54,913 nt of DNA from a virus (Duplodnaviria; Caudoviricetes): the IMG/VR virus record IMGVR_UViG_3300049489_000585, positions 1 to 54,913 of that record, one strand, 5' to 3'. The notes under the pieces were generated by a model. That model did not search any database and had not been told where the DNA came from. It saw only the letters and a list, made by a program, of their open reading frames with translations. A program made the translations under genes and the position numbers. Positions 1 to 54,823 of this stretch are shown here, in pieces (within the stretch, counting starts at the first letter, position 1; the number at the start of each line of letters is the position of its first letter).

Positions 1-127
1 ATGTCAGTCCTTTCGCGTCGGCGCATTGAGGCCGAACCCTTCGTTCCACCGGACAAGCCCCGGCGGGTGGCATTGGCGCAATGACCTACTTGGTCAGCGC
101 CGGGTCTTGCCGGTGAACTCCGACGTT
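1..127 (+). repeat. Exact duplicate of 53924-54050 (end of cassette 7 with attC7), here joined directly to cassette 9
   Basis: Identical up to CGACGTT, then diverges (GTGCCG at 128 versus AGGCGT at 54051). Confidence 0.95.
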
Positions 128-784
128 GTGCCGCACTGAACACCGCCGCGCCAGTTCCACCAGCCAAGCGCGGAACTCCGGCGGCGTGTGCTCTCGCTCG
201 GCCTTGCTCATGATCTCGACCGTCGTGCATTCGGGCATCCGCACCACGACGGCGGTGTGCTGGCGCGGGGGCGGTATCGTCGGCAGGTCGTCGGGGCCAG
301 CGCCTACGATGTACAGCCAAGTGCGCTTCTCTGCGCGGTGGCCCCAGTCCACTTGCCGAACCTCGGCTGTCCAGCCGCCGAACTGGTCGGGCGTGCGCCC
401 GCGCTGCGGCAGGCCGTAGTGCCGCCATGCGCGGCTGCCTGCCGGGTGCTCCAGCACGCCGCCGCAGCGACGCACCGTGTCCAGCGCGAACTTGAACGTG
501 CCGCCGTCGTTGCCCCAAGCGAATTCCGCGGCCTTGTGCGGGTAGCGAGACAGCACCACGCCATTGATCATCGACCAGCGCGTGCAAGGTGGATGCGCCA
601 CAACCGGCAGCGTGCCTCGGTACGTCGTGGCATCGCGCACCTTGTCCCACACGTCCACGCCTGGCATGGCCTTGTAGCCGCTGTCCTCGCGCGCAAAGAG
701 CACGGCCACGCCTGCGCGGTGCGGCACAACACGCCCATCGAGCCGAGGCCCAACAGCGGCAACGGTAGTGGCTTCGTCCAGCAT
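86..784 (-). CDS. Cassette 9: DNA cytosine methyltransferase-like protein
   Basis: VAVLF SAM-binding start, HPPC (motif IV PC), VLEHP (ENV-like), WGH..KRTWLY. Starts inside attC9 and stops inside the preceding attC. Confidence 0.65.
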   Translation of the reverse strand: MLDEATTVAAVGPRLDGRVVPHRAGVAVLFAREDSGYKAMPGVDVWDKVRDATTYRGTLPVVAHPPCTRWSMINGVVLSRYPHKAAEFAWGNDGGTFKFALDTVRRCGGVLEHPAGSRAWRHYGLPQRGRTPDQFGGWTAEVRQVDWGHRAEKRTWLYIVGAGPDDLPTIPPPRQHTAVVVRMPECTTVEIMSKAEREHTPPEFRAWLVELARRCSVRHNVGVHRQDPALTK

Positions 785-823
785 GCTCAGCGCTGTTGGT
801 CCCGGCTCATGGGCACGTTGTGC
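724..823 (+). other. attC: attC9 (100 bp)
   Basis: GCACAAC...imperfect palindrome...GTTGTGC. GTGCGGCACAAC pairs with GTTGTGCCGCAC at 125. Confidence 0.9.
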
Positions 824-824
824 G

Positions 825-1142
825 TCAGTAGCAGATCACGCGCGCCAGGTGCGCCACCGTCGTGACCTTGATCGTCTTCCCGCTGGTGCTGGTCACTTCC
901 AGGCCCTTGGCGCCCATGTCGTTTTCCCAGCAGTACCATTCCAGCCACTCGGCGTCATCGCCCAGCTCGCGGGCCAAGCACGATGTGTAGGCATCCCACA
1001 TGCGGCCCATGGCAAGCGCTATCGGCGCCTCGGGGCCGCACTTGGTTAGCGCCTGCAGTGCCGTGTATTGGGCCTGCCAGTCGTCATACATGCGCTGCCA
1101 CTCAAGCAAGCGCGGCGCAATGTCTCGGGGCTTCTTCTTCAT
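825..1142 (-). CDS. Cassette 10: hypothetical protein
   Basis: ORF fills the cassette and has a GGAG RBS upstream. Confidence 0.75.
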   Translation of the reverse strand: MKKKPRDIAPRLLEWQRMYDDWQAQYTALQALTKCGPEAPIALAMGRMWDAYTSCLARELGDDAEWLEWYCWENDMGAKGLEVTSTSGKTIKVTTVAHLARVICY

Positions 1143-1169
1143 GCCAATGCACTCCTACTTCCACCAGCC

Positions 1170-1258
1170 GCACAACTGGTCGTTGCAACGGACGGCCCTA
1201 CGGCCGTCCTGTGGTCCGCGAAGGCCCGGCAGGGCCGCCGCTGAACTGGTCGTTACAC
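1170..1258 (+). other. attC: attC10 (89 bp)
   Basis: GCACAAC...GTTACAC. CGCACAAC pairs with GTTGTGCG at 817. Confidence 0.88.
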
Positions 1259-1885
1259 AGCAAAGTCGCGGCACTTGATCTTGGCGATCAACCGATGCCC
1301 ACTGCGGGTGTTCAACTCGATCTGAGGCCTGGCAACGATGCCCTCAGCCTGGAAGTCACCCCACGTCGATTGAATGCCGCGCTTTGCCCAAGCGACTGCA
1401 TCGTGCAACGTGCCAGCCCCAATCACCGGCGCAACATCAAGGCCCAACTTCTGCGCCACGTCATGCACATCATCGCGCTGCAGCCACCACTGCCCAACGC
1501 GCACATCGAACAGCGCGAAGCCTTGGTCTGGCCGGTAGTTGCCGCCGCCCTTCTGGATCTTGGCGCCGTAGCCCTCGCCATACAGCACCGCCTGGCCGTC
1601 TGCAAACACCTCGCCCAGCTTTGCGGCCAGTGGCAAGAAGCGTTCATTCAGGCGGCCCACCAGTTGCGCCGGGATCTGCGCGTCCTCGGTGCGCCCACCG
1701 AACGTGATGCCGCCGTCCTTGAAGATCACGCGGATGTTCGTGCCGTCCACCTTCTCGGTGAAGGTCCACACGTTGCCTGCAAGGTACTCAAACTCAGGCA
1801 GGGTCCATTGGCCTTCAAGCAGCGTCTTGTGCTTGCTGGTCATGTCGCGCTTGAAGAGGGTCTGAATCTTGTGGTACTCGCTCAC
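1253..1885 (-). CDS. Cassette 11: RNA ligase (Rnl2-like nucleotidyltransferase domain)
   Basis: Motifs EKVDGTN, YGEGYG, FALFDV, EGIVARP, KIK. The TAA stop lies in the recombination core. Confidence 0.88.
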   Translation of the reverse strand: MSEYHKIQTLFKRDMTSKHKTLLEGQWTLPEFEYLAGNVWTFTEKVDGTNIRVIFKDGGITFGGRTEDAQIPAQLVGRLNERFLPLAAKLGEVFADGQAVLYGEGYGAKIQKGGGNYRPDQGFALFDVRVGQWWLQRDDVHDVAQKLGLDVAPVIGAGTLHDAVAWAKRGIQSTWGDFQAEGIVARPQIELNTRSGHRLIAKIKCRDFAV

Positions 1886-1904
1886 GGGTCATTTCCTGGT
1901 TGCT

Positions 1905-1994
1905 GTGTAACCCTGCGCTCAACCGGAGCGCCTCGGGCAGCATCACGCTGCGGGTGAATTCGGCTCGTGGCTCCCGGTTATCTCCACGTTATGG
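1905..1994 (+). other. attC: attC11 (90 bp)
   Basis: GTGTAAC...GTTATGG. TTGCTGTGTAAC pairs with GTTACACAGCAA at 1252. Confidence 0.9.
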
Positions 1995-2168
1995 CGCCAC
2001 TCGCTTCGCCACCCGAAGCCGCCTGCGAGCGATCTTCGCGGCGGCTTCCTTCACTTCGGCGTGGTCGTCCGGGTGCGCGAAGATGCCGCGCACTTCGGTT
2101 GCTGTCGTCTCAGCCTTGCGCTGGCGAAACTCTCGCTGGCGCTCGGCGTTGGTCTTGGCGGGGCTCAT
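1989..2168 (-). CDS. Cassette 12: small basic putative DNA-binding protein (59 aa, MSPAKTNAERQREFRQRK...)
   Basis: Hand-translated, below the ORF-track cutoff. ATGA overlap with the upstream ORF and TAA stop in the core site. Confidence 0.7.
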   Translation of the reverse strand: MSPAKTNAERQREFRQRKAETTATEVRGIFAHPDDHAEVKEAAAKIARRRLRVAKRVAP

Positions 2169-2578
2169 CGCGCAACATCAGACGCCGCGTCCTCAAGCGA
2201 GGTAGCCTTGCTAGGCAGCAACCCGGCGGCGATGCGCGTCAGTTCAACCACGCGCTGCGCGACGACTTCGGTGCTTGCCGCGTTCTTGGCGGCCGCACGC
2301 ACAACACCATCAAACGCGCCCCTGTACTGACTCGCAAGCGAATTGGCAATCTCTTTCTCGATGCTCTTCATGAGGGACGGTGAAACGCATGCCTGCGCGA
2401 TGCCAACCTTGAGGGCCGCGAGAATTTGCGCCTCGGACTCGGAGACAGCCTTGTCCATCGCCTTCTTGAGCTGATTCCCGGTTCCGTACTGGTCGCGCAT
2501 CATCGATTCGATGGCCTGCTGAAGGCCGCGCTGAATCCAGCTCTGAATGGTTTCTTCGGTGATAGTTACTGCGGGCAT
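2165..2578 (-). CDS. Cassette 12: hypothetical alpha-helical protein
   Basis: ORF with AAGGA RBS, in an operon with its neighbours. Confidence 0.75.
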   Translation of the reverse strand: MPAVTITEETIQSWIQRGLQQAIESMMRDQYGTGNQLKKAMDKAVSESEAQILAALKVGIAQACVSPSLMKSIEKEIANSLASQYRGAFDGVVRAAAKNAASTEVVAQRVVELTRIAAGLLPSKATSLEDAASDVAR

Positions 2579-2600
2579 GGTTTAGTCCTTTGTGTGTGGT

Positions 2601-2846
2601 TCACAGGTCTCTCCAGTTCGTCTGCTTTTCGTCGGCGTAGTCCAGACCGAAGCAGCACTTGATTCGCATGCACAGGGTTTCGTCTGCGCCGTTGATGATG
2701 ATGCGGCCTTTGCCAAGGAAGCGGCCGAACAATGCGCGTTGCTCAGTGGCTGACATGCGGCCCATCCACTCGCCGAACACGGTGCCAGTCTTCTCCACCA
2801 AGAACAGGGCCATCTGTGCGGCGTAGTCGGTGCGGGTGGCTTGCAT
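2601..2846 (-). CDS. Cassette 12: hypothetical protein
   Basis: GGAG RBS before ATG 2846. Confidence 0.7.
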   Translation of the reverse strand: MQATRTDYAAQMALFLVEKTGTVFGEWMGRMSATEQRALFGRFLGKGRIIINGADETLCMRIKCCFGLDYADEKQTNWRDL

Positions 2847-2871
2847 GTCGTTCTCCGGTTGCTGTGCGTTC

Positions 2872-2900
2872 ATTGTGCGCCACCGTTACGCGTAACACAA
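2872..2900 (-). promoter_or_regulatory. Cassette-internal sigma70 promoter with palindromic operator
   Basis: TTGTGT-17-CACAAT on the minus strand. Perfect palindrome GTTACGCGTAAC (2885-2896) lies over the spacer. Confidence 0.6.
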
Positions 2901-2936
2901 GCTGCATTTGCATCTTTACATTCGCGTGCCTACGCG

Positions 2937-2990
2937 CCATAACCCTGCGCTCAACCGGACCGAGTACGGCCGGTTAGCTCCACGTTGGGC
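2937..2990 (+). other. attC: attC12 (54 bp)
   Basis: CCATAAC...GTTGGGC. GCGCCATAAC pairs with GTTATGGCGC at 1988. Near copy of attC3. Confidence 0.9.
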
Positions 2991-3574
2991 TTCATGAACA
3001 CCAGCCAGTGCGTGCCGGCCTTCTTGCCGCTCGTGTTGCCGAACAGCGGTTGATGCGGCGTCAGCGCCAGCACTTCCGACAGCTTCACCTGCGTCTCGTT
3101 CCACTTGAACACCAGCACGCCATCGGGGTGCAGCACGCGGAAGCACTCGCTGAAGCCGGCGCGCAGGTCTTCGCGCCAGTCCTGGCCCAGCTTGCCGTAC
3201 TTCGCGGCCAGCCAAGAGCGCGGGCCTGCGCGCACCAGGTGCGGCGGGTCGAACGCCACCAGCCGGAACGTGCCGTCATCGAAGGGCAGTGCGCGGAAGT
3301 CCATCAGCAAGTCGGGGCATACCGTCAGCGTGCGCGTGCCATCCTGGCGGCCGTGGCTGCGGTCGGTCACTGTCAGCGTCTCGCTGCGGCGGTCGCCGAA
3401 CACCGCGTCCGGGTGTCCACGGTCGAACCACATCATGCGGCTGCCGCTGCACGGGTCCAACACGCGGGGCGAGGAATCGGCGTTGAAGCCCAACCCTTCG
3501 TGCGAGCCGACATGCCCCGGCGGGGCTTCGGTGGTCATCGAATCATCGTTGCGGGGCATGCGGCTCCACTCCAT
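2951..3574 (-). CDS. Cassette 13: SAM-dependent (probable DNA amino-) methyltransferase
   Basis: VLDPCSGSRM motif I, FDPPH motif IV, FKWNE. Candidate starts lie inside attC13 and the stop lies inside attC12. Confidence 0.85.
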   Translation of the reverse strand: MEWSRMPRNDDSMTTEAPPGHVGSHEGLGFNADSSPRVLDPCSGSRMMWFDRGHPDAVFGDRRSETLTVTDRSHGRQDGTRTLTVCPDLLMDFRALPFDDGTFRLVAFDPPHLVRAGPRSWLAAKYGKLGQDWREDLRAGFSECFRVLHPDGVLVFKWNETQVKLSEVLALTPHQPLFGNTSGKKAGTHWLVFMKPNVELTGRTRSG

Positions 3575-3582
3575 CGTTGAGC
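3488..3582 (+). other. attC: attC13 (95 bp), last site of array
   Basis: GCCCAAC...GTTGAGC. TGAAGCCCAAC pairs with GTTGGGCTTCA at 2984. Confidence 0.9.
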
Positions 3583-3583
3583 C

Positions 3584-4426
3584 TCACTCGACATCGGCGG
3601 CCTTGCGCGAGCGGCGGCCGCGAGGCTTCGGCGGCTCAGGATCGGCGCCCGTCGTCTCGCCGGCGCCAGCATCCGGCCCGCCTGCCGCACCTTCCGTCCC
3701 GTCGCGCGGGAAGGGCCAGTCCTTGCCCAGCTGCTCGTCTGACGACCCAGCGCCGGGCGCCCCGTCAGTGTCCGGGTGGCCGCTACCGTCGTCGTCGGTG
3801 TGCTCTTCGTCGGGGCCGCCGTGCTCGGCCGAGAAGGCATCGCCGGCCTCGGTGTCCAGCAGGTCGGCCTGGCCATCCGCAGCGCCCGGGTGGTCCTTCT
3901 TGAAGGCCTCGGTGCTGCCGTCGATGGCCTTCGGCGGCGCCTCGGGCGGCGTGACGGTCACGAAGACCTTGCGCTTCTGCCGGCCCCAGAGCATGCCAGC
4001 GCCAGCCTCGTCCACGTCGGCGGTGCTGACGCGGAAGTCGACGTCCATGTGCCCGCCTTCGAAGAAGTCGAAGCGGAAGTCGTCGATCTTGCAGCTGCCC
4101 ATCTGCAGCGCCGAGTCCTCGGTGATGCCGCGGGCCACCACCACGGTCCAGCCTTCAAGGCAGGTCTCGGGCGCCCAGTGCTTCAGGTCCTTGGAGCGCA
4201 GGATGGGCGTGGTGACCTCCACGCCGGGCAGCTGCTCCTGGCCCTCGACCGGCGCGTAGACCGTCAGGCGCATGGTGGGCGAGAACAGGTCCAGCAGCTC
4301 GTTGCGCACGCTGGCGAGCTTGAGGCGGAAGCTGACAGCGGGCACGTCGTCCTTGCCGCTCTTCTGCGTGCGGCCGACGAAGGTGGTCAGCTCGCACTCG
4401 GTGTCGTGGTTCAGGTGGAAAAGCAT
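3584..4426 (-). CDS. Phage early hypothetical protein with acidic low-complexity tail
   Basis: 280-aa ORF with AGGAG RBS, in the leftward operon. Confidence 0.8.
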   Translation of the reverse strand: MLFHLNHDTECELTTFVGRTQKSGKDDVPAVSFRLKLASVRNELLDLFSPTMRLTVYAPVEGQEQLPGVEVTTPILRSKDLKHWAPETCLEGWTVVVARGITEDSALQMGSCKIDDFRFDFFEGGHMDVDFRVSTADVDEAGAGMLWGRQKRKVFVTVTPPEAPPKAIDGSTEAFKKDHPGAADGQADLLDTEAGDAFSAEHGGPDEEHTDDDGSGHPDTDGAPGAGSSDEQLGKDWPFPRDGTEGAAGGPDAGAGETTGADPEPPKPRGRRSRKAADVE

Positions 4427-4453
4427 GGGGCTCCTTGGTGGTGGTGGGCTTGG

Positions 4454-4789
4454 TCAGAACTGGCTGTCGGGGCCTTCGTCGACGCCGCTGTGGGCCAGCT
4501 GGCGCGAGGGCTCGACCGGGCGCAGCTCATACGCCGACACCGGCCGCGCCTGCAGCGTCCCGGCCAGGCGGCGCGCCACGTCCTCGGTGGTGACCGTCAT
4601 GCCGTAGATCGCGCCCTGGGTGAAGAAGCTCGTGTAGGGCGGCACGTCGCCGACGGCGGGCACGTCGATGCGCAGGAAGTGCACGCCGCCGATGGTCTGG
4701 TCGCTGAGCTTGCCGGCCAGGCGCTGGTGGCCGAACAGCTCGAGCAGGCCCCAGGCCTCGAACTTCTCGGTGGTCTTGTCGTCGTTCAT
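4454..4789 (-). CDS. Phage hypothetical protein
   Basis: AAAGGA RBS. WGLLELFGHQRLAG N-terminus resembles prophage early proteins. Confidence 0.8.
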   Translation of the reverse strand: MNDDKTTEKFEAWGLLELFGHQRLAGKLSDQTIGGVHFLRIDVPAVGDVPPYTSFFTQGAIYGMTVTTEDVARRLAGTLQARPVSAYELRPVEPSRQLAHSGVDEGPDSQF

Positions 4790-4908
4790 CGGGTCCTTTC
4801 GGTGGTGGTCAGAAGAAAGGCGGGCGGCCGTTGCCGGCGCGTGGTGGGAATCGAGGGAGGGAGGAGACAGGAGGTGCCCACCGCGCAGGATTCGCCCGTG
4901 GAAATGGG

Positions 4909-5088
4909 TCAGTCGCAGCGCGTGCAGCGATTGAGCTCGGACACGCCGTGCGGACAGCGGGAGGCCCGCGCAGCGTTGCCGGCGGCCAGCGCGAGTTGGC
5001 GCTGCAGGCGTTCGATGGCGTCGGCCGCCTCTCGCTGCAGAAGCACGTTGGGCGGGCTCTCGCGAAGCCGCTGGATGAGAGCGTCCAT
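4909..5088 (-). CDS. Small hypothetical protein (CPHG...C..C)
   Basis: TGATG coupling with the upstream ATPase. Confidence 0.65.
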   Translation of the reverse strand: MDALIQRLRESPPNVLLQREAADAIERLQRQLALAAGNAARASRCPHGVSELNRCTRCD

Positions 5089-6884
5089 CAGGCTGCCTCC
5101 CTCAGTGCTTGGCGCCCAACGACGCCGGCCTCGATCCACTCGACCTGGACGCGCTCGCCCAGGCCGGCGGGTGGTTGCTTGAGCGTCGCGAACAGCAACG
5201 CGCTGTCGATCTCGCCGGTCTCGGCCAGCACGTCGAGCCACGCGAACAGGTCGCTGCGGCCCGGCAGGTCCAGCACGTCGACGCGGTCCAGCACCAGCAT
5301 GCGGGCGCTGGACACGTGCGCGATGGCCTCGGCCAGCATCGCGTCGGCACGCCAGCGCTCGGACTCGCTGCAAAGCGCGTAGGGCCTGCCGGCGCCGTAG
5401 GTGATCGCCATGTCGCTGTCGATCGACACCACCGGCCAGGCGGCATCGGCCGATGACTGCGCCAGGCGGGCGTTCACCGGGCCCAGGGCTTCGGACAGCA
5501 GATCGGCCGGGATGCCGTCGGGCGACAGTGCCTGCGCAATCGCGTCCCAGGCGGTCACGTCGGCGGCGTGCTGGCCGGCCTGCTTGGTCTTGGCCTCGGC
5601 GGCGTCGGCCAGCGCCTTGATCGACTTCAGCTTGTCGCCCTCGGCCACCGCGGCGGCGCGCTCGGCCTTCAGCTTCTCGACCTGGTCGCGGGCGTCCTGC
5701 AGGGCCGCGGCGTCGAAGGTCTCGTTCAGCTCGTCGGCGATGGCCTTGGCCTGGGCGTGCGCATCCTGGGCCGCAGCCAGATCGCGCTTGGCGTTGGCCA
5801 CGGCGCGCTGCATCAGCTCGAGCGCGCCGCACAACTCCGGCAGCCGGCTGCGGGCACCGTGGTCGCCGACGGCCAGAGCATCGATCGGGCCGTGCTCGGT
5901 TTCGTAGGCAGCCAGTGGGGCTGCCCAGGCTGCACGGAACTGGTGGTCGGCACCGACGAAGAACAGCGTGTCCCGCAGCGCGTGCGCCAGGTCATGCACC
6001 AGCCCAACACGCGGCCCTGCGCCGGCCTTCGCGGTGGCTTGCGCAAGCGCGGCCTCAGACTCGCTCAGGCCTCGCTGGTCGGCCTGCAGCTTGGCCTCGA
6101 GGCGGGGCACCTTGGCCGCATGCTCCTGCAGCGCCGGCAGCTTCGCCCGCAGCCCGGCACGGCGCTGCTCCTCGGCCTGCAGCCGTCCAATGGTCTGCTG
6201 CCAGGATGCGATGGCCACGTCAGCGTGCTTCGCGGCGGTGGCGTGCTTCGCGGCGGCCTCGGCGTCGTACGGCGGCACCGCGGCCTTCCAGCCCTTGGCC
6301 TTCTCGCTGCCGTAGGTCTCGCCGGTGACGGTGCGCCAACTACCTTTGCTTTCGGTCGCCTTGGTCTTGGCCTCGGTGCACGCGGCGTCGAAGCCAGAGC
6401 GCAGCAGCGGCAGCACGCGCTGCACCTTGGCGTCGTCGCAGCCCTTGGCCTTCAGGCGGGCAGCGATGTCGGCCTGCGCCATCTTCACGCCCATCAGGCC
6501 GAAGAGGAAGGCGCGGCGCTCGGTCAGTGGCAGCCGGGCGAACCGCTGGGCGTCCAGCACGTAGGCCAGCACCGGGTCGGTGTCGCGGCCCTTCTGGCTG
6601 TCGTGGATCTTGCCGCTGCGGTTGATGGTGACGCGCCACTCGTCGCCGTCGGCGTTCTTGACCTCGCACACGGCCAGGTCGGCGCCCTCGCGGATCAGGG
6701 CCGGCGCGTCCTTCTTCAGCGACACGCGGCCCAGGTCGGCGGTGATGGCCAGGGCCACGGCGTCCCTGAGACTCGACTTGCCGGCAGCGTTTTGACCGGC
6801 GAACAACGCCACCGGTGCGCGCAGCTGGATCTCGGCATGCTGGATGCCGAGGAAGTTTGTGACGTAGAGCGAACTGATGCGCAT
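5088..6884 (-). CDS. SMC/SbcC/Rad50-like coiled-coil ATPase
   Basis: NFLGI, Walker A GQNAAGKSS, long coiled coil, signature-like LCSESE, Walker B LVLDRVD. Confidence 0.85.
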   Translation of the reverse strand: MRISSLYVTNFLGIQHAEIQLRAPVALFAGQNAAGKSSLRDAVALAITADLGRVSLKKDAPALIREGADLAVCEVKNADGDEWRVTINRSGKIHDSQKGRDTDPVLAYVLDAQRFARLPLTERRAFLFGLMGVKMAQADIAARLKAKGCDDAKVQRVLPLLRSGFDAACTEAKTKATESKGSWRTVTGETYGSEKAKGWKAAVPPYDAEAAAKHATAAKHADVAIASWQQTIGRLQAEEQRRAGLRAKLPALQEHAAKVPRLEAKLQADQRGLSESEAALAQATAKAGAGPRVGLVHDLAHALRDTLFFVGADHQFRAAWAAPLAAYETEHGPIDALAVGDHGARSRLPELCGALELMQRAVANAKRDLAAAQDAHAQAKAIADELNETFDAAALQDARDQVEKLKAERAAAVAEGDKLKSIKALADAAEAKTKQAGQHAADVTAWDAIAQALSPDGIPADLLSEALGPVNARLAQSSADAAWPVVSIDSDMAITYGAGRPYALCSESERWRADAMLAEAIAHVSSARMLVLDRVDVLDLPGRSDLFAWLDVLAETGEIDSALLFATLKQPPAGLGERVQVEWIEAGVVGRQALREAA

Positions 6885-6888
6885 GGCG

Positions 6889-7989
6889 TCACTCCACGGC
6901 AGGGCCAGCGGCGCGGGCGCGGCGGGCGGTGGGGGCTGCCGTCGCAGCGGCAGGCGCCTGGCCGGCGGCCTCGGCCTGTTCGCGCGCGCGGATCGCGGCT
7001 TCCTCGGCGGCGCTGGGTGCCCAGTCGTCGCCGGGGCCTTGGTCCGGCGGCGGGGCCGGGGCAGGCGGCGCAACGGCGGTGACGGCCGGCGGTTTCGGTG
7101 GCTTCGGCGGATCGACCTCGCCGGTCGGATCATCGCCACCACCGGCGCCGTCAGCCTCGGCATCCGGCAGGAATCCGAAGTCGCCGTCGATCACGTCCAT
7201 GCGCTGGTCCTGGCCACGCGAGGCAGCTTCATCAAGCCCAGCCGCGGTCTGGAACTCGATCGACAGCGGCAGGTACTTGGCCAGCCGACGGATCACCGTC
7301 TTGCGGCCCATCTCGACGAAGTGAGCGACCCACGGATGAGCGGCTTCCTTCTTGTACTTCTGGGCCTGTTGGAACCCCTGCGACGCGGCGCGGATGGCCT
7401 CGATCTGGTGGGTGCTCATGAACTCGAAGCAGTGGCCGCCGTCCTTCAGCTTGGCCACTGCGTAGAAGCCGACCACGCCGCCGCGGTCGCCCATCGCAGG
7501 CGTGTGGTTCAGCTTCTCGTCTAGGCCGTAGACCAGCTCGAATCGATCGTTCTCGCAGACCTCGTGCGCGGCGATGCTCACGATCTGCCCACTGCGCCGG
7601 GCCAGGTCGATCAGCCCCTTGTAGCCGATGATCACCTGCACGCTGTTGACCCAGCGCTCGTTGCCGTCGGCGTCCTTGCGCTTGGTGTTGAAGGGCACGA
7701 GGTAGGCGTGGCCGAGCACGGTGTTCGGCTCCAGGCCCATCTGCGCGCACTGGCCGATGGCGCCGACCAGAGACGCCACATCGCACTTGGCCAGGGCCGG
7801 CGTGGTGGTGGCCGCGATCTGCGCAACCTTCAGCAGCCGATCGATGCTCAGCGTCTTCGGCAGCATCTTGGCCAGGTCGCCCTTCTTCTTCTCAAGCAGG
7901 TAGGCGATCTGCTCCTTCGGCTTCATGTCGGCCAGCGGCCGGGTGGCGACCGCGCTGGCGGACTTCAGTTCTGCGATGTTGGTGGACAT
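6889..7989 (-). CDS. recT: RecT-family ssDNA annealing recombinase
   Basis: GLEPN..LGHAYLVPF, IIGYKGLIDLARRSG, EMGRKTVIRRLAKYLPLSIE. Confidence 0.93.
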   Translation of the reverse strand: MSTNIAELKSASAVATRPLADMKPKEQIAYLLEKKKGDLAKMLPKTLSIDRLLKVAQIAATTTPALAKCDVASLVGAIGQCAQMGLEPNTVLGHAYLVPFNTKRKDADGNERWVNSVQVIIGYKGLIDLARRSGQIVSIAAHEVCENDRFELVYGLDEKLNHTPAMGDRGGVVGFYAVAKLKDGGHCFEFMSTHQIEAIRAASQGFQQAQKYKKEAAHPWVAHFVEMGRKTVIRRLAKYLPLSIEFQTAAGLDEAASRGQDQRMDVIDGDFGFLPDAEADGAGGGDDPTGEVDPPKPPKPPAVTAVAPPAPAPPPDQGPGDDWAPSAAEEAAIRAREQAEAAGQAPAAATAAPTARRARAAGPAVE

Positions 7990-7996
7990 GGTGTTC

Positions 7997-8839
7997 TCAC
8001 TCGTGGAAGTTGCAGGTAGACCAGCGCGCGCAATACTTCTCAGCGCACAGCATGGACTGGGGGTTAGGCGGGAACAGTCCCGTCCGAAACATCTCGGCCG
8101 CGAACTCGATCAGCCCGCGCTGGCCGTCGGCGCCGACCATCACGCGCTTGGCATCGAAGACCTTCGACGCCATGACCTGCGGCTTGCTGCTGGTCTGCAG
8201 TGCCAGCACCTGGCCGCCTAGGGTCTCCACCTGTTCGGTGTGCTCGTACATCAGTTGGTAGGTGCCGACCTGGGCGCTGCGGCCCTTGACCTTGGCCTCG
8301 CCCTTCTCGATGACGCGCGAGCCAGACTTGAGGTCCGGGATCACGATGCCGTCATCGGTGGCGGCCACGCGAGCGCGATCCATGGTGCCGGTCAGCCGGA
8401 TGACGATGCCACTGCCGCAGTCGATGTCGAGCGGGTCGAGCTTCTGCTCCACGCTCTTGAACGTGAACCGGGGCGACAGGTCCAGGCAGTACATCGTGTG
8501 CAGCTGCAGGCCGATCTTCTCGGCGTCGCTGACGGTCAGGTCATCCTTGCTGTAGTCCACGTCACGATCGGGCTTGTGCAGCGCGTCGACAAAGGCGCCC
8601 GCGGCGTCGTTGACCGACATGCGGCTGCCGCCCGGCAGGCGCCCGCTGTCGAAGGCCGCGGTGCTGGCGTGGAGTGCGGTGCCCAGCTGCGCGCGCAGGC
8701 CCGAGGCGTTGCGCATGCCCAGCAGGTGCTCGCCTTCCCACCGATGGGCGCAGTCGAACAGGCCACCCCAACTGGATGCGCGCACGGCGGTGACGCTGCG
8801 CTCAGCGACGACGGGGATGATGCGTTCAGGCGCGTTCAC
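7997..8839 (-). CDS. PD-(D/E)XK RecB/Cas4-like exonuclease (RecT partner)
   Basis: GTALH, LTGTMD, PDLKSG, QVGTYQL, C-terminal Cys cluster. Confidence 0.85.
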   Translation of the reverse strand: MNAPERIIPVVAERSVTAVRASSWGGLFDCAHRWEGEHLLGMRNASGLRAQLGTALHASTAAFDSGRLPGGSRMSVNDAAGAFVDALHKPDRDVDYSKDDLTVSDAEKIGLQLHTMYCLDLSPRFTFKSVEQKLDPLDIDCGSGIVIRLTGTMDRARVAATDDGIVIPDLKSGSRVIEKGEAKVKGRSAQVGTYQLMYEHTEQVETLGGQVLALQTSSKPQVMASKVFDAKRVMVGADGQRGLIEFAAEMFRTGLFPPNPQSMLCAEKYCARWSTCNFHE

Positions 8840-9374
8840 AGCGGATTCCCCCAGAACTCAAACACCTTCGCCCAGGCCTTGGCCGCAGCGTTGCGGCGCG
8901 TCATGCCACTGCGGCGGTAGAAGCGATACAGCCGGATGAGCGTCACAGCAGCACCACCGCGGCGGCAGCGCCCAGGATCGCGGCAATGGCGGCCCACTGC
9001 ACCCAGGGCAGCCACCGCGACGTGCTGCGGGCCTCGGCGTCGACCAATGCGGCGAGCTCGCTGCTGTACTCCAGGCCGTCCCGGATGTCGGAGTCGTGCG
9101 TCATGCCGGCCTCACGCTCAGGCGCTGCAGGTCGTCGTCCAGCGCATCGATGGCAGCGATCACGGCATCGCAACTGCTGCGCGCGATCAGGGTCAGCGTG
9201 CCACTGGCGCCGCTGCGGAGAACGTAGCGGGCGAGGAAGGTGCGCATCACGGCTTCACCTCATCAACAACGGTGCCGCCGACCAGCGCCCCGGCTGCCCA
9301 CATGGCCAGCATCGACAGCGCGATGCCGGACAGCAGGCCCAGCAGGAACGCGAACGCAAGAAGGTCGGGGCGCA

Positions 9375-9764
9375 TCACGTGTTCCTCGGCATCTTGTCCA
9401 GCGCGCGCTGCAGTTCAGTGGCGAGGTGCTCCATCCAGTCGGACGAGATCCACACCTCGTTCAGCTTGACCGCGAACACCGTGTACCCGTCGTGCGGGTG
9501 CCGCTCGTCCGCCGGCTCGACCTCGCACGCGACATCCCACACCGCGCCGCGGTACGGCACGCCGACGATCGCGTCACCGGGGCGGATCTGGATCTGGTGC
9601 TGCGGGCCGCGGCGGGCGGGGATCAGCGCTGCCTCAGCGGCAAGCGCGGTGTAGTGCTCGACGGCGCGGGCCTTGTCGACCGGCCGCTCAAGCACCGCCT
9701 GCGCGGCCTCGAATTCACCGAACGAGCTGTCCGACACGTCGGGCGTGGGGATGCGGGCGTTCAT
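9375..9764 (-). CDS. Hypothetical protein
   Basis: GGAGG RBS and ATGA coupling. Confidence 0.7.
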   Translation of the reverse strand: MNARIPTPDVSDSSFGEFEAAQAVLERPVDKARAVEHYTALAAEAALIPARRGPQHQIQIRPGDAIVGVPYRGAVWDVACEVEPADERHPHDGYTVFAVKLNEVWISSDWMEHLATELQRALDKMPRNT

Positions 9765-10018
9765 GCTGCCTCCGCGACGAGCCCGGCCGGCAACGCTTCA
9801 CGCCGCCCCGCCTTGGCGGCCTTGACGGCCTGCCGGCGGCCCAGCGCCTTCACGTTGGCGCGGCGCAGCTTCTTCTCCGCGCTGGCCGTGTGCTGACCCA
9901 GCCAGTCGCCACCCTTGGCCGGCTTCGGTGCGGCCGGGTGCTTCACGCCCTGGCCATGTCGGCGCCCCGAGCCCTTCTTGGTCGGGTGCTCCGTTCGTTG
10001 GTCGGTGATCTGCGGCAT
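9761..10018 (-). CDS. Basic hypothetical protein, first gene of leftward operon
   Basis: GGGAG RBS just downstream of the PL-like promoter. Confidence 0.65.
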   Translation of the reverse strand: MPQITDQRTEHPTKKGSGRRHGQGVKHPAAPKPAKGGDWLGQHTASAEKKLRRANVKALGRRQAVKAAKAGRREALPAGLVAEAA

Positions 10019-10051
10019 CTGCGGCTCCCGGTGCGTGTTGCGATGGGATGA

Positions 10052-10080
10052 AATCTACACGCACCGTTTATGCATGTCAA
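10052..10080 (-). promoter_or_regulatory. Leftward early promoter (PL-like)
   Basis: TTGACA-17-TAGATT on the minus strand. Confidence 0.8.
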
Positions 10081-10114
10081 CGGGTTGTGAAGAAAATTCT
10101 TTTCTCACGGGCCG

Positions 10115-10143
10115 TTGACTGTCTCAAACGAAGCGTTTAGCAT
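10115..10143 (+). promoter_or_regulatory. Rightward early promoter (PR-like), probably leaderless cro mRNA
   Basis: TTGACT-17-TAGCAT with the ATG 7 nt after the -10. Palindrome AAACGAAGCGTTT in the spacer. Confidence 0.8.
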
Positions 10144-49124: not shown

Positions 49125-50222
49125 TCAGACCAGCGAGTCCAGCGGGCTGCGCACGCACATGCCGCCCTGCTTGGCCGGCAGGACGTGGGTATAGATCATC
49201 GTGGTCTCCAGATCGGCGTGGCCGAGTAGGGCCTGAATCGTGCGGATGTCGTACCCGTCCTGCAGCAGGTGGGTGGCAAAGGAGTGCCGCAATGTGTGCG
49301 GGGTGGCGCGCTTCATGATCCCGGCGCCGGCCACGGCCCGGGCCATCAGGCGCTGGATGCCGTCCTCGTGAAGGTGGTGGCGCCTGACAAGGCCAGTCCG
49401 CGGGCACGTGACGTAGGTGTCGGTGGCGAAGATCCACTGCCAGCGGATGTCCTGCCCGGCCCGCGGGTACTTCAGGTGCAGCGCGTGCGGAAGCTCGACG
49501 TCGGCCCGGCCGGCAGTGAGGTCGACCTGGTGCAGCGCCTTGCGCGCTTCCATCACCTCGCGCAGCTGGCCGGCCAGCGATCGCGGCAGCATGACGGTTC
49601 GATCCTTGGCGCCCTTGCCGTCGCGGACGGTGATGCTGCTCGACTCGATGTCCGCGTCCTGCATGCGCAGGCGCAGACCTTCCGTCAGCCGCAGGCCAGC
49701 GCCGTACAGCAGGCGCAACACCAGGCCGCGGATGTTGGCCTGCGGGATCTGCAGCCACAGGCGCGCCACCTCGTCCCGAGTGAGCACGACCGGCAACTTC
49801 TGCGGCTGCTTGGCGCGCACGATTCCCTCGACCCATGGCAGCTCGACCTGCAGGGCTTGCTGGTACAGGAAAAGCAGCGCGGCCAGGGCCTGGCGCTGGG
49901 TGCTGGCCGACACGTCGCGCACCTGGGCAAGATGCGTGAGGAACTGCGACACCTCCGGCGCGCCCATCTCGAGCGGGTGGCGCTTGCCGGACCACAGCAC
50001 GAACTGGCGCGTCCAGTGCCAGTAGGCCTGCTCCGTACGGCGCGAATAGTGTTTGGCCCTGATCGCGCCGACCACCAGGTGGCGCAGGTGGCCAGGCTCA
50101 CCCGGCTGCGGCTCACTCGCGGATGCAGGAACGCTGCTGCGGGCCAGCCCATCTCCGCGAGCCAGCGCGACAGCGCGGCGCGTAACGGGCTGGCAGGTCG
50201 GCGGTGCTTGGAGGATGGCCAT
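49125..50222 (-). CDS. intI: Integron integrase
   Basis: HYSRRTEQAY, STQRQALAALLFLY, LPVVLT, LLYGAGLR, GKGAKDR, IntI-specific insertion LPHAL..KYPRAG...WQWIF...RRHH, HTLRHSFATHLL, LLGH.D..TTMIYTHV, RSPLD. Confidence 0.97.
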   Translation of the reverse strand: MAILQAPPTCQPVTRRAVALARGDGLARSSVPASASEPQPGEPGHLRHLVVGAIRAKHYSRRTEQAYWHWTRQFVLWSGKRHPLEMGAPEVSQFLTHLAQVRDVSASTQRQALAALLFLYQQALQVELPWVEGIVRAKQPQKLPVVLTRDEVARLWLQIPQANIRGLVLRLLYGAGLRLTEGLRLRMQDADIESSSITVRDGKGAKDRTVMLPRSLAGQLREVMEARKALHQVDLTAGRADVELPHALHLKYPRAGQDIRWQWIFATDTYVTCPRTGLVRRHHLHEDGIQRLMARAVAGAGIMKRATPHTLRHSFATHLLQDGYDIRTIQALLGHADLETTMIYTHVLPAKQGGMCVRSPLDSLV

Positions 50223-50229: not shown

Positions 50230-50270
50230 GGTGTTACACCGCAGATCCTGCGGTCGAATTGAAGTTAGGC
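50230..50270 (+). other. attI: attI site
   Basis: Core G|TTAGGC at 50264 is not part of an attC hairpin. Upstream TGTTACACCGCAG resembles the attI1 accessory repeat at similar spacing. Confidence 0.8.
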
Positions 50271-50518
50271 GTCTCAACGCGCTCCCACCAGCCGCCCCAC
50301 TCAGCAGGCGTCAGTCTGTCGGCGTGCAAGTGTTCGTGCGGCTGGCAGCACTTCAGCTTGCGCGGCATGTAGTCGTTCGGCCTATCGCCTTGCAAGCGCG
50401 GCGCGCTGGCGTTGGTGTAGCCAACGAACAGCACTTGTTCGCGCATGCGTCCGAGCACGTCGCTATAGCGGTTCCGGTAGGTGCCAACCTCGGTCGGCAA
50501 GGTCTTTGTGTACGCCAT
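50234..50518 (-). CDS. Cassette 1: hypothetical protein
   Basis: AAGGAG RBS. Reads through attI and stops 11 nt before the intI ATG. Confidence 0.7.
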   Translation of the reverse strand: MAYTKTLPTEVGTYRNRYSDVLGRMREQVLFVGYTNASAPRLQGDRPNDYMPRKLKCCQPHEHLHADRLTPAEWGGWWERVETPNFNSTAGSAV

Positions 50519-50564: not shown

Positions 50565-50630
50565 GCCTAACCCGTCGTCCGACCTGACAGCCCCGGCAAG
50601 CCGGGTCTGCAGGTCAACTTTGCGTTAGGG
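50565..50630 (+). other. attC: attC1 (66 bp)
   Basis: GCCTAAC...GTTAGGG. ACGCCTAAC pairs with GTTAGGCGT at attI. Confidence 0.92.
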
Positions 50631-50631
50631 C

Positions 50632-51947: not shown

Positions 51948-52001
51948 GGCTAACCCGCCGCTGAACCGGACTGAGTACAGCCGGTTAGCTGCACGTTCGG
52001 C
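51948..52001 (+). other. attC: attC3 (54 bp)
   Basis: GGCTAAC...GTTCGGC. AGCGGGCTAAC pairs with GTTAGCCCGCT. Confidence 0.92.
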
Positions 52002-52387: not shown

Positions 52388-52439
52388 GCCGAACTACTCG
52401 CTCAAGCCGACCTTCGGCGGCTTAGCTCGAACGTTATGC
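52388..52439 (+). other. attC: attC4 (52 bp)
   Basis: GCCGAACTACTCGCTCAAGCCGACCTTCGGCGGCTTAGCTCGAACGTTATGC, a typical top-strand attC pattern. Confidence 0.92.
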
Positions 52440-52878: not shown

Positions 52879-52936
52879 GCATAACCCTTCGCTCGAACGG
52901 ACGGCCTACGGCCGCCGTTCAGCTCCCACGTTAGCC
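52879..52936 (+). other. attC: attC5 (58 bp)
   Basis: GCATAAC...GTTAGCC. ACTGATGCATAAC pairs with GTTATGCATCAGT. Confidence 0.92.
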
Positions 52937-53953: not shown

Positions 53954-54054
53954 GCCGAACCCTTCGTTCCACCGGACAAGCCCCGGCGGGTGGCATTGGC
54001 GCAATGACCTACTTGGTCAGCGCCGGGTCTTGCCGGTGAACTCCGACGTTAGGC
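53954..54054 (+). other. attC: attC7 (101 bp)
   Basis: GCCGAAC...GTTAGGC. TTGAGGCCGAAC pairs with GTTCGGCCTCAA. Confidence 0.9.
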
Positions 54055-54269
54055 GTCTTGCTGTCATCGAAGCCGTGCTCCACGGCTCGCCAGTCGCCGC
54101 GCCTGGCTTCGCGCATGTCCAGCGCGCGGAATTCGGCCGTGATCTGCCTGCGGAACTTGCGCGCCGCGTTCACATCGGCAGTCACGGTCATGTTCACCTG
54201 ACAGGCCATGTAGAGCCCGGTGGACTTCCCGTCCTTGGTGAAGTTCTCCACCAGCCACGAGTACGTCAT
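54009..54269 (-). CDS. Cassette 8: hypothetical protein
   Basis: GAGGA RBS. Stop lies inside attC7. Confidence 0.7.
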   Translation of the reverse strand: MTYSWLVENFTKDGKSTGLYMACQVNMTVTADVNAARKFRRQITAEFRALDMREARRGDWRAVEHGFDDSKTPNVGVHRQDPALTK

Positions 54270-54484
54270 GAGTAGTCCTCGTCAAAGTTGCACGGCACCG
54301 TCCACTGCTTGCCGCAGCGGCTGCACTCGATGATGTCGTGATCGTCTATTACGCCGCAGCAGTCCACAGTGCGCGGCGCCGGGCATCTTTGCAGGTGCTT
54401 CTGGCAAAGCTCGGGCTTCTCGGCATCGTGCAGGCTGCACCCGCCTTTGATACGGCCACCTTCGTAGCGCTTAGGCGTCGTCAT
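54266..54484 (-). CDS. Cassette 8: small Cys-rich protein
   Basis: Multiple Cys, ECSRCGKQW..PCNFDEDYS, overlaps neighbours. Confidence 0.6.
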   Translation of the reverse strand: MTTPKRYEGGRIKGGCSLHDAEKPELCQKHLQRCPAPRTVDCCGVIDDHDIIECSRCGKQWTVPCNFDEDYS

Positions 54485-54746
54485 ACAGGTCGTATCGCTG
54501 GCAAAGCGCGTCCATGTCAAGCCGGGCGCGCTGCGTCACCAGTTCGCGTCCGTCACGAAATACCACGCAGCGGTAGCGCTGGCCCGGACGAATCTTCCAC
54601 TTGTCGGCCTCAACGCCTTCAAGCACCAGCCGCTCGTCAGCAGTTACGGCATCGCGCGGCTGGCCGTAACTGCGCCACATTTCGCTGGCGTCGCAGTCGT
54701 AGAACTTGCGCGCGGTTCTCACTTCGTCTTTCAGTACCAATACCAT
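54471..54746 (-). CDS. Cassette 8: hypothetical protein
   Basis: GAGGAG RBS. RTARK.Y.CDA...I.PGQRY. Confidence 0.72.
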   Translation of the reverse strand: MVLVLKDEVRTARKFYDCDASEMWRSYGQPRDAVTADERLVLEGVEADKWKIRPGQRYRCVVFRDGRELVTQRARLDMDALCQRYDLYDDA

Positions 54747-54769
54747 CGTTTGCTCCTCTGCGCCACGAC

Positions 54770-54823
54770 GCCTAACCCGTCATTCGAGCCGACCGTTCCG
54801 GCGGCTCAATTCCCACGTTGTGC
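54770..54823 (+). other. attC: attC8 (54 bp)
   Basis: GCCTAACCCGTCATTCGAGCCGAC...CGGCTCAATTCCCACGTTGTGC. GACGCCTAAC pairs with GTTAGGCGTC. Confidence 0.93.

What the first reader, a model, noticed from the sequence alone, without database searches (positions are those of the whole stretch)
86..3574. Cassette cargo looks like a shuffleable counter-defence kit: four methyltransferases and an RNA ligase
Seen: methyltransferase-like ORFs of four different types in cassettes 2 (DPPY), 3 (NPPF), 9 (HPPC) and 13 (DPPH), with no cognate restriction nuclease. There is also an Rnl2-type ligase (cassette 11) and several small Zn-finger and membrane proteins. Known: orphan phage MTases protect against restriction, and T4 RNA ligase repairs tRNA cut by PrrC. 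Bacterial integron cassettes often carry anti-phage defences. Inference: this is the mirror image, an integron of anti-defence genes, so the unknown ORFs are candidates for new defence inhibitors.
Basis: inference. Interest (0 to 1): 0.82.

Follow-up and report, generated by a model that had tools for sequence, protein, structure and literature searches.

The report
Phage integron carrying methyltransferase and ligase cassettes
A temperate freshwater phage carries its own working integron whose swappable cassettes include several orphan DNA methyltransferases and an RNA ligase, so part of the cargo probably helps the phage evade host restriction, though most cassette genes remain of unknown function.

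Summary
The observation largely holds. The window is a complete circular phage genome. It carries a true integron: IntI (TIGR02249, 412.7 bits), an attI site and 13 attC-bounded cassettes that wrap the window ends (50266-54913, then 126-3577). The stated span 86-3574 covers only cassettes 9-13.

Cassettes 2, 3 and 13 encode DNA methyltransferases of three families. Cassette 9 is only a distant C5-methyltransferase-like fold. Cassette 11 is a 210-aa RNA ligase catalytic domain without the Rnl2 C-terminal domain.

All 18 cargo ORFs lie on the strand opposite to bacterial cassettes. They run with the phage early-left operon, intI and int.

Cassette 8 is present or absent in one metagenome, cut exactly at the G|TT points. 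It also sits in other contexts elsewhere.

The counter-defence reading is plausible for the methyltransferases but unproven. The ligase has no healing partner. Ten unknown ORFs match no defence family.

Qi et al. 2023 (PMC9892861) already suggested that phage cassette methyltransferases counter restriction. This scan had noted reversed phage cassette arrays on other DNA.

The parts
49125..50222 (-). intI, integron integrase (365 aa from the ATG; profile match to residues 52-364)
   Evidence: TIGR02249 412.7 bits against a cut-off of 265; PF00589 plus PF13495
47645..49009 (-). Phage tyrosine integrase directly downstream of intI
   Evidence: PF00589 87.8 bits. The IntI-then-Int order is kept in 7 related loci at 57-61% identity
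50225..50271 (+). attI, with the crossover at G50265|TTAGGC
   Evidence: Homology to related loci stops at 50270-50288. A contig in run X4 joins a near-copy of 50234-50264 directly to cassette 8
50234..50518 (-). c1 ORF, 94 aa, unknown; its last residues are encoded by attI
   Evidence: no Pfam, PHROG or PADLOC hit
50565..50630 (+). attC1
   Evidence: CM 55.0 bits
50632..51381 (-). c2 DNA methyltransferase (DPPY, N6/N4 type)
   Evidence: PF01555 50.2 bits; phrog_67 119 bits
51406..51464 (+). attC2
   Evidence: CM 65 bits
51434..51922 (-). c3 small Dam-like DNA methyltransferase (NPPF); its stop lies inside attC2
   Evidence: phrog_111 58.9 bits; Pfam Dam 20.9 bits, below cut-off
51948..52001 (+). 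attC3
   Evidence: CM 57 bits
52010..52354 (-). c4, phage protein of unknown function
   Evidence: phrog_5086 76 bits. Model pLDDT 93.7. Best fold matches are uncharacterised phage proteins, TM 0.70
52388..52439 (+). attC4
   Evidence: CM 57.9 bits
52441..52851 (-). c5 Cys/His-rich protein, unknown
   Evidence: zf-C2H2_jaz 19.9 bits, below cut-off; ESM Atlas gives viral hypothetical clusters
52879..52936 (+). attC5
   Evidence: CM 69.7 bits
52947..53294 (-). c6 membrane protein
   Evidence: phrog_1486 51.8 bits
53332..53394 (+). attC6
   Evidence: CM 30.8 bits
53396..53925 (-). c7a (53396-53713) and c7b (53710-53925), unknown
   Evidence: no family hit
53954..54054 (+). attC7 (long, 101 nt); a second copy lies at 31-131
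   Evidence: CM 50.2 and 48.4 bits; exact repeat 1-127 = 53924-54050
54049..54817 (-). Cassette 8 (769 nt) with three overlapping ORFs: c8a 54009-54269, c8b 54266-54484, c8c 54471-54746. It is polymorphic and widely shared
   Evidence: A joint from 54045 to 54815 skips 769 nt in run X1. It recurs in L014, L003 and L026 with homology starting at 54047/8. c8c matches phrog_13613
54770..54823 (+). attC8
   Evidence: CM 62.8 bits
1..129 (+). Variant junction: attC7 joined directly to cassette 9 (the genome form without cassette 8)
   Evidence: Repeats D4 and D5; joint at depth 48.9 against 9.46 for cassette 8
86..709 (-). c9, HPPC protein with a distant C5-methyltransferase-like fold; function open
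   Evidence: phrog_12600 213 bits; 6804 relatives, all unnamed; Foldseek weak; conserved PPC and EHP motifs
724..823 (+). attC9
   Evidence: CM 24.3 to 34.6 bits
825..1142 (-). c10, unknown
1170..1256 (+). attC10
   Evidence: CM 27.2 bits
1253..1885 (-). c11 RNA ligase, nucleotidyltransferase domain only
   Evidence: PF09414 74.6 bits; phrog_548 79 bits; TIGR02307 31.6 bits, below cut-off
1905..1994 (+). attC11
   Evidence: CM 26.9 bits
1989..2873 (-). Cassette 12 with three ORFs: c12a 1989-2168, c12b 2165-2578, c12c 2601-2873; all unknown
2937..2990 (+). attC12
   Evidence: CM 58.1 bits
2951..3574 (-). c13 DNA methyltransferase (DPPH); its first ~29 residues are encoded within attC13 and its stop lies inside attC12
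   Evidence: phrog_954 234 bits; L041 homologue at 49% identity with the same attC overlap
3488..3582 (+). attC13, the last site; the backbone gene 3584-4426(-) follows
   Evidence: CM 47.2 bits
10052..10080 (-). Promoter-like site heading the leftward early operon (exonuclease, RecT, SbcC-like, cassettes, intI, int)
   Evidence: 10 of 12 consensus match, one of a divergent pair; gene functions. This is inference only

Best explanation
The region is the far end of a 13-cassette integron that belongs natively to a temperate siphovirus of freshwater Burkholderiales.

Shown:
- A full-length IntI, an attI site and 13 structured attC sites.
- Cassettes that are gained and lost exactly at the G|TT crossover in natural populations.

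Also shown: unlike bacterial integrons, every cargo gene lies on the attC bottom strand. The genes therefore run with the phage leftward early operon (exonuclease, RecT, SbcC-like, then cassettes, then intI, then int).

Inferred: the cassettes are read from the early-left promoter near 10.05 kb rather than from a Pc promoter, and IntI is made in the same transcript on infection or induction.

The recognisable third of the cargo acts on nucleic acids: three orphan DNA methyltransferases of different families, one C5-methyltransferase-like protein and one minimal RNA ligase.

Most likely mechanism (inferred): the methyltransferases are made early and methylate the replicating phage DNA at several motifs, protecting it from host restriction systems. 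The integron lets the phage lineage swap such genes, one cassette at a time, as hosts change. The small unknown proteins are early accessory genes drawn from the phage gene pool. Some may be counter-defence genes, but nothing shows this.
For: Integron and phage identity:
- IntI scores 412.7 bits against a cut-off of 265.
- There are 14 attC hits, all on one strand and only in the array.
- The L-box stem is 95.3% paired, with compensatory changes at 10 of 11 pairs; 200 double-sided changes against 60 in shuffles; slid controls 23-45% paired.
- The extra bases are C and A on the same arm as AAC, six pairs apart. This is the top-strand signature described in PMC5027507 (passages read; sequence).
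- The genome encodes terminase, portal, protease, major head, tape measure, tail, RecT and exonuclease and is 100% complete by CheckV.

Mobility:
- In run X1 a 769-nt skip runs from R' to R'. Depth is 48.9 without cassette 8 and 9.46 with it.
- Cassette 8 sits in other flanks in X2 and X3, and at an attI-like site in X4.
- Cassette 8 shows 78-93% nucleotide identity to L026, L003 and L014, whose IntI is only 56-77% identical. Homology starts at 54047/8.

Orientation:
- All 18 of 18 window cargo ORFs are on the minus strand, 9 of them with PHROG hits.
- Related phage arrays have 51 ORFs running with IntI against 12 opposite.
- Seven bacterial arrays show 6 against 23 the other way round.

Cargo:
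- c2, c3, c13 and c11 are placed by profiles.
- The only PF01555 match in the genome is c2, and there is no PF00145 or PF02086 match. Of those three families, the only match in the genome is therefore c2, in the array; c3 and c13 were placed by PHROG profiles run on cassette ORFs only.
- No nuclease family appears among the cargo.
- There are 0 PADLOC hits for the 10 unknown ORFs tested of 18.
- Atlas neighbours of c5 and c8c are 69-100% viral.

Expression:
- The only two promoter-like sites in 1-12000 are the divergent pair at 10052-10143.
- None was found in 47000-54913.
Against: - No activity, methylome or expression data exist.
- c3 and c13 miss Pfam cut-offs, and c9 is not a recognised methyltransferase.
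- The ligase lacks the Rnl2 C-terminal domain, and no Pnkp-type domain is in the genome. A T4-style tRNA repair role is therefore not supported.
- Nine of the 18 ORFs have no family at all.
- In related arrays methyltransferases are a minority: 4 of 78 ORFs by Pfam.
- Promoter evidence is a consensus scan only. Three weak terminator-like sites lie on the minus strand inside the array, no more than shuffles give.
- X1 may be the sample the contig came from, and its depths are contig-level figures, not reads.
- ORF strand counts in relatives come from my own codon-bias caller, which is noisy in high-GC DNA.
Confidence: 0.6

Rival explanations
1. The array is a general store of phage accessory ('moron' or early) genes with no counter-defence theme. 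Methyltransferases are there simply because they are common phage genes. The integron is a diversity generator whose cargo serves many unrelated purposes such as replication, recombination and host takeover.
For: - Related arrays carry a helicase, exonucleases, DUF5131 and DUF4326 as well as methyltransferases.
- Nine of the 18 window ORFs have no family.
- c4 folds like widespread uncharacterised phage proteins.
- No known anti-defence fold or family was found.
Against: Three or four DNA-modification genes among 18 ORFs, and all the methyltransferases I could detect in this phage, sit in the array. Early-operon placement fits genes needed at entry.
Confidence: 0.25
2. The cargo serves the lysogen rather than the infecting phage. 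It would provide superinfection exclusion, prophage-encoded defence or epigenetic control of the host, as in defence hotspots of other temperate phages.
For: - The phage is temperate (an integrase lies next to intI).
- c6 falls in a PHROG membrane-protein family classed under 'moron, auxiliary metabolic gene and host takeover'.
- The three-gene cassettes 8 and 12 could be small systems.
Against: - There are 0 PADLOC matches for the 10 unknown ORFs tested.
- No promoter-like sites lie inside the array, so expression under repression is unlikely.
- The genes sit in the early lytic operon.
Confidence: 0.1
3. The integron is a piece of a bacterial chromosomal integron picked up by accident, as in the published Vibrio and Shewanella prophage cases. 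Its cargo would then be bacterial and irrelevant to the phage.
For: Published complete phage integrons are mostly of this kind (PMC9892861; Results read). IntI is 47-55% identical to many bacterial IntI proteins.
Against: - The same IntI-next-to-phage-Int layout recurs in 7 related viral loci.
- 25 of 47 IntI-bearing viral loci have attC sites in the same geometry.
- The cargo runs with the phage operon, opposite to bacterial arrays.
- The cargo families are viral.
Confidence: 0.03

Closest known systems
Integrons and attC clusters in phage genomes (Qi, Rajabal, Ghaly, Tetu, Gillings 2023, PMC9892861; Results and passages read)
   Same: IntI, attI and attC in phage genomes. Orphan DNA methyltransferases in phage cassettes (five in their set). 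They suggest such cassettes help overcome host restriction.
   Different: - They found 3 complete integrons in 10,705 phages, described as pieces of Vibrio chromosomal integrons, class 1 integrons on a P1 phage-plasmid and a cryptic Shewanella prophage.
- Here the integron has 13 cassettes and recurs across a phage lineage next to the phage integrase.
- Here the cargo is viral, and every gene is reversed relative to attC.
- Here there is a natural presence/absence polymorphism of one cassette.
- Their supplementary tables were not available to me.
Sedentary chromosomal integrons as stores of anti-phage defence (bioRxiv 10.1101/2024.07.02.601686; listing and abstract seen)
   Same: An integron platform stockpiling small conflict-related genes as single cassettes.
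   Different: That platform is on the bacterial side, with defence systems in canonical cassette orientation read from Pc. This one is on the phage side, has no PADLOC matches, and carries reversed cargo inside a phage operon.
Class 1 integron (IntI1, attI1, attC such as attC-aadA7)
   Same: - IntI is 56% identical to IntI1.
- The attC sites have the same R/L boxes and a 5-6 nt unpaired spacer.
- They have two extra bases six pairs apart and a G|TT crossover.
   Different: - No Pc-driven expression.
- The genes are antisense to the attC top strand.
- intI lies downstream of the cargo in the same transcription direction.
- No resistance genes.
T4 RNA ligase 2 (PDB 1s68, N-terminal domain)
   Same: A nucleotidyltransferase domain with the lysine motif; it is the only PDB sequence hit (E 0.078). 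PF09414 scores 74.6 bits.
   Different: c11 has 210 aa and no C-terminal domain. From recalled knowledge, repair of PrrC-cut tRNA in T4 uses Rnl1 with Pnkp, not Rnl2. No Pnkp-type domain is found here.
Reversed phage cassette arrays noted earlier in this scan (e1-5971010, e1-6083154, e1-5738564)
   Same: Integron-type sites in phages, genes facing backwards relative to bacterial integrons, and DNA-modification cargo.
   Different: The first two had no integron integrase on the contig and the third a Xer-type recombinase lacking the IntI insert. This window has a full IntI, an attI site and population evidence of cassette movement.

Membership tests
Integron (complete) | Tyrosine recombinase carrying the IntI-specific insert | tested here: met
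   TIGR02249 412.7 bits against a cut-off of 265, covering profile positions 7-315 of 315
Integron (complete) | Two or more attC sites with R''-L''...L'-R' boxes that fold as hairpins with extrahelical bases | tested here: met
   13 sites plus one duplicate. 90.1% of cells are paired against 73.3% in shuffles, and the L box is 95.3% paired with 10 of 11 pairs covarying. The alignment was fitted to the model, which favours pairing
Integron (complete) | attI next to intI, serving as the insertion point | tested here: met
   Homology breakpoints fall at 50270-50288. Cassette 8 is joined to an attI-like sequence in X4 and lies next to IntI in L014 and L026
Integron (complete) | Cassette excision and insertion at G|TT of R' | tested here: met
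   A 769-nt skip from 54045 to 54815 equals the distance from G54048 to G54817, with both forms in one metagenome. This rests on contigs, not reads
Integron (complete) | Promoterless cargo on the attC top strand, expressed from Pc near intI | tested here: not met
   All 18 of 18 ORFs are on the bottom strand. No promoter-like site lies in 47000-54913
Orphan phage DNA methyltransferase (anti-restriction) | SAM-dependent DNA methyltransferase domain | tested here: met
   c2 passes the Pfam cut-off. c3 and c13 are placed by PHROG DNA-methyltransferase families only (58.9 and 234 bits) and fall below Pfam cut-offs
Orphan phage DNA methyltransferase (anti-restriction) | No cognate restriction endonuclease beside it | tested here: met
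   No nuclease family appears among the 18 cargo ORFs in Pfam, and the unknown neighbours are at most 137 aa. A novel small nuclease cannot be excluded
Orphan phage DNA methyltransferase (anti-restriction) | Methylates phage DNA and protects it from host restriction | not testable with these tools
   Needs a methylome and plating assays
C5-cytosine DNA methyltransferase (for c9) | PF00145 domain with motif I (glycine-rich SAM loop), motif IV (PC) and motif VI (ENV) | tested here: not met
   There is no PF00145 match in the genome. PPC and EHP are invariant, but the N-terminal motif has no glycine loop. Fold matches to DNMT and M.HaeIII are weak (E 3e-3, TM 0.3-0.43). The motif names are recalled
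Rnl2-family RNA ligase (for c11) | Nucleotidyltransferase domain with the KxDGxN motif | tested here: met
   PF09414 74.6 bits against a cut-off of 27; KVDGTN is in the translation
Rnl2-family RNA ligase (for c11) | Rnl2-specific C-terminal domain and equivalog score | tested here: not met
   TIGR02307 31.6 bits against a cut-off of 197, covering profile positions 22-220 of 326; the protein ends at 210 aa
T4-type tRNA repair pathway | An end-healing kinase/phosphatase (Pnkp) alongside the ligase | tested here: not met
   PF13671 and PF08645 have 0 matches in the six-frame genome. Other healing enzymes were not searched

The most novel reading that the evidence does not exclude
Temperate phages of freshwater Burkholderiales run a dedicated phage-side integron. 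IntI is co-transcribed with the early genes, and the cassette pool is built in reverse, so it is expressed only in phage operons. The platform's purpose would be rapid swapping of counter-defence genes. The many small unknown cassettes (c1, c4, c5, c7, c8, c10, c12 and their relatives) would then be a catalogue of new defence inhibitors. The highly mobile three-gene cassette 8 would be the first to test.
Probability: 0.3. Interest if true: 0.85.

Novelty: new variant of a known kind. Interest (0 to 1): 0.66.

Why it matters
Integrons are known as bacterial devices for stockpiling resistance and, more recently, anti-phage defence genes. Here a phage lineage owns a complete one, and a cassette can be seen entering and leaving in nature.

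The cargo is wired into the phage early operon in the opposite sense to bacterial cassettes. Phages would then have a cassette pool of their own. Exchange with bacterial integrons would be possible mechanically but silent in expression.

If the cargo is counter-defence, these arrays are a compact, self-delimiting source of candidate defence inhibitors. They would also be a natural system in which the arms race could be followed cassette by cassette in metagenomes.

Tried and rejected
- Megablast of window 1-6000 against 50,697 phage records gave one 78-nt match only, so there is no close cultured relative.
- phmmer against PDB for c9, c13 and c3 found nothing significant.
- PADLOC on 10 unknown ORFs gave 0 families. 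This does not test anti-defence function.
- The c4 structure (pLDDT 93.7) matched only uncharacterised phage proteins. An Acb4 match at E 1.0 is not significant.
- ESM Atlas for c8c and c5 returned only viral hypothetical clusters, and no structure search was possible.
- The backbone gene 3584-4426 has no relatives in viral contigs.
- The RecT neighbour search found only 5 of 80 related loci with attC hits (8 hits). The platform is therefore sporadic, though many of those loci are short fragments.
- My first placement of the attI crossover at 50233 (GTTACAC) was dropped in favour of 50265.
- A seemingly lone R' at 817 turned out to be a full 100-nt attC at 724-823.
- My hand-written hairpin scan was too noisy at one mismatch, so I replaced it with a covariance model.
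- Self-trained ORF calling failed on short or lower-GC loci: L036 and L073 gave 0 ORFs and L083 gave 1.
- A joint from 52917 to 54808 in X3 (side 20, three letters between) is too weak to read as a rearrangement.
Their word shares say nothing firm about habitat.
- No dedicated anti-defence profile library was available.

Full report
**What the window is**

The record is a viral contig of 54,913 bases, rated 100% complete, at about 68% G+C. It encodes terminase, portal, head protease, major head protein, tape measure and tail protein on the plus strand. On the minus strand it has a leftward block with an exonuclease, a RecT-like annealing protein and an SbcC-like protein.

The two ends overlap in an unusual way. 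Bases 1-127 equal 53924-54050, and about 125-221 equal 54817-54913. The genome is therefore a circle of 53,923 or 54,692 bases, depending on whether one 769-nt unit is present.

**The integron**

ORF 49125-50222(-) is an integron integrase: TIGR02249 412.7 bits against a cut-off of 265, full profile length. A phage-type integrase follows it at 47645-49009(-).

Reading the sequence shows repeated sites with a fixed layout:
- RYYYAAC, a 5-nt spacer, then a 3+6-bp stem interrupted by an extra C and an extra A on the 5' arm;
- a variable loop, the complementary arm and a 5-6-nt spacer;
- then GTTRRRY.

I built a covariance model from 8 short window sites and 10 sites from related loci. It finds 14 hits in the window at E <= 5e-4. 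All are on the plus strand and all are in the array. Six of the 14 hits were not in the training set. The best hit in the opposite orientation scores 15.5 bits.

On 70 sites from the window and 21 related loci, 90.1% of cells pair against 73.3% in shuffles. The L-box helix is 95.3% paired with compensatory changes at 10 of 11 pairs. Slid controls give 23-45%. That alignment was fitted to the model, which favours pairing.

Nivina et al. 2016 (PMC5027507; passages read) state three things:
- They are G and T on the bottom strand.
- They are separated by a 6-bp stem.

This matches these sites with the window plus strand as the top strand. The geometry of intI, attI and attC is therefore canonical.

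**Cassettes and cargo**

Thirteen cassettes run from attI (crossover at G50265|TT) through the window end and on to attC13 at 3488-3582. They hold 18 ORFs, all on the minus strand.

| ORF | Finding |
|---|---|
| c2 | N6/N4 DNA methyltransferase, PF01555 50.2 bits |
| c3 | Small Dam-like methyltransferase: phrog_111 58.9 bits; Pfam Dam below cut-off |
| c13 | phrog_954 'DNA methyltransferase', 234 bits |
| c9 | See below |
| c11 | RNA-ligase nucleotidyltransferase domain, PF09414 74.6 bits, 210 aa |

c9 belongs to a large unnamed family: 6804 relatives and phrog_12600. PPC and EHP motifs are invariant in it. Its confident model (pLDDT 87.6) matches C5-cytosine methyltransferases only weakly (E 3e-3, TM 0.3-0.43). 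PF00145 finds nothing in the genome. I leave its function open.

c11 stops at 210 aa and lacks the Rnl2 C-terminal domain (TIGR02307 31.6 against a cut-off of 197). No Pnkp-type kinase or phosphatase domain is in the genome.

The other ORFs are small:
- c4, c6 and c8c fall in PHROG families without known function, or in a membrane-protein family.
- c5 and c8c have only viral hypothetical neighbours in the ESM Atlas.
- c4 folds like uncharacterised phage proteins.
- Ten unknown ORFs gave no PADLOC match.

**Reversed cargo**

In bacterial integrons the genes lie on the attC top strand and are read from Pc. Here 18 of 18 lie on the bottom strand, in the same direction as intI, int and the upstream early genes.

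The same holds in relatives. In 47 viral loci with an IntI relative, all 68 attC hits, found in 25 loci, lie upstream of IntI on the opposite strand. Every tblastn match of window cargo runs in the IntI direction.

My codon-bias caller gives 51 ORFs running with IntI and 12 against in 21 non-redundant arrays. As a control, seven bacterial arrays with IntI 47-53% identical gave 6 with and 23 against. The caller is noisy, so these counts show a trend, not a census.

The only two promoter-like sites in 1-12000 are a divergent pair at 10052-10143. None is in 47000-54913.

I infer that the cassettes and intI are read from the early-left promoter. A side effect is that ORFs run across cassette borders:
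- c8a and c9 (in the form without cassette 8) end in the same 13 residues, encoded by attC7.
- c13 begins inside attC13.

**Mobility**

I laid the Logan contigs of four metagenome runs on 52800-54913.

In X1, which may be the source sample, depth is about 51.5 up to 54050. It falls to 9.46 over cassette 8 and is 48.9 beyond. A 9,955-nt contig joins 54045 to 54815. This skips 769 nt, the exact distance between the two R' crossovers. The common form therefore lacks cassette 8 and a minority carries it. This explains the odd window ends.

In X2 and X3, cassette 8 (4 and 6 differences) sits between unrelated flanks that begin at 54047/8 and 54819. In X4 it follows a near-copy of the window's attI.

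In related loci, cassette 8 or its c8b-c8a core recurs at 78-93% nucleotide identity, with homology starting at 54047/8. Their IntI proteins are only 56-77% identical. Otherwise the arrays share almost nothing, which indicates fast turnover.

Twenty runs from 16 studies hold part of the stretch. Only four were laid.

**Interpretation**

The counter-defence reading is the best one for the methyltransferases:
- They are orphan enzymes of three families.
- They are the only methyltransferases I could detect in the phage.
- They sit in the early operon.

The reading is weak for the ligase and untested for the rest. In related arrays methyltransferases are 4 of 78 ORFs by Pfam. At least 3 of the 78 match phrog_67, and single members match phrog_954, phrog_363 and phrog_56. 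These sit beside a helicase, exonucleases and DUFs.

The host is probably a Burkholderiales bacterium. The closest genomic IntI, at 68% identity, is in a Rubrivivax MAG.

**Novelty**

The library searches found one paper on phage integrons, Qi et al. 2023. It reports 3 complete integrons in 10,705 phages and five cassette methyltransferases, and it suggests these counter restriction. I could not see its supplements.

I found nothing in print on three points:
- a lineage-wide native phage integron;
- reversed cargo;
- natural cassette polymorphism in a phage.

Earlier notes of this scan describe reversed phage arrays on other DNA, either with no integrase on the contig or with a Xer-type recombinase that lacks the IntI insert.

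Noticed in passing
window 54009-54050 and 86-129: c8a and c9 (in the form lacking cassette 8) end in the same 13-residue tail. Both read across the G|TT junction into attC7, so the neighbouring site supplies the C-terminus and the stop codon.
   Followed up: partly
window 3488-3574; L041 9003-9118: The first ~29 residues of methyltransferase c13 are encoded on the bottom strand of its own attC. The 49%-identical homologue in L041 overlaps its attC in the same way, and conservation starts right after the site.
   Followed up: partly
L043 5369-5509; L044 10001-10141: These look like decayed integrons. Only the last ~47 residues of IntI remain (81% identity) next to an intact phage integrase, with one attC and a c2-like methyltransferase (30% identity).
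   Followed up: no
L014 2-118 and 993-1214: Two copies of the c8a gene occur in one short array, suggesting cassette duplication.
   Followed up: no
H4, KX853513.1 4725-5642: A 41-kb virus record from an enrichment culture encodes an IntI relative (47% identity over 84% of the query) annotated as xerD. It is not among the four temperate phages of Table 1 in Qi et al. 2023.
   Followed up: no
window 34113-34636: Tandem 72-nt repeats (4-5 copies, 61-82% identical) lie inside ORF 34043-34807(+), in the tail region. They may encode a repeated domain in a fibre or decoration protein.
   Followed up: no
window 37419-37507: ARAGORN calls an 89-nt tRNA-Asp on the minus strand inside a plus-strand coding region (37409-37843). 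It may be a false call.
   Followed up: no
window 10052-10143: A divergent pair of promoter-like sites lies between the leftward and rightward gene blocks, as at a lambda-type immunity switch.
   Followed up: partly
window 20393-24346: A very large (1317-1512 aa) protein whose first 400 residues match 'minor head protein and DNA pilot' (phrog_220). The rest is unassigned.
   Followed up: no
L087 11730-11825; L116 11915-12511: In two Planctomycetota MAG loci the attC hits lie downstream of IntI on the same strand. This is the 'inverted integrase' layout, unlike both the phage arrays and the other bacterial arrays.
   Followed up: no
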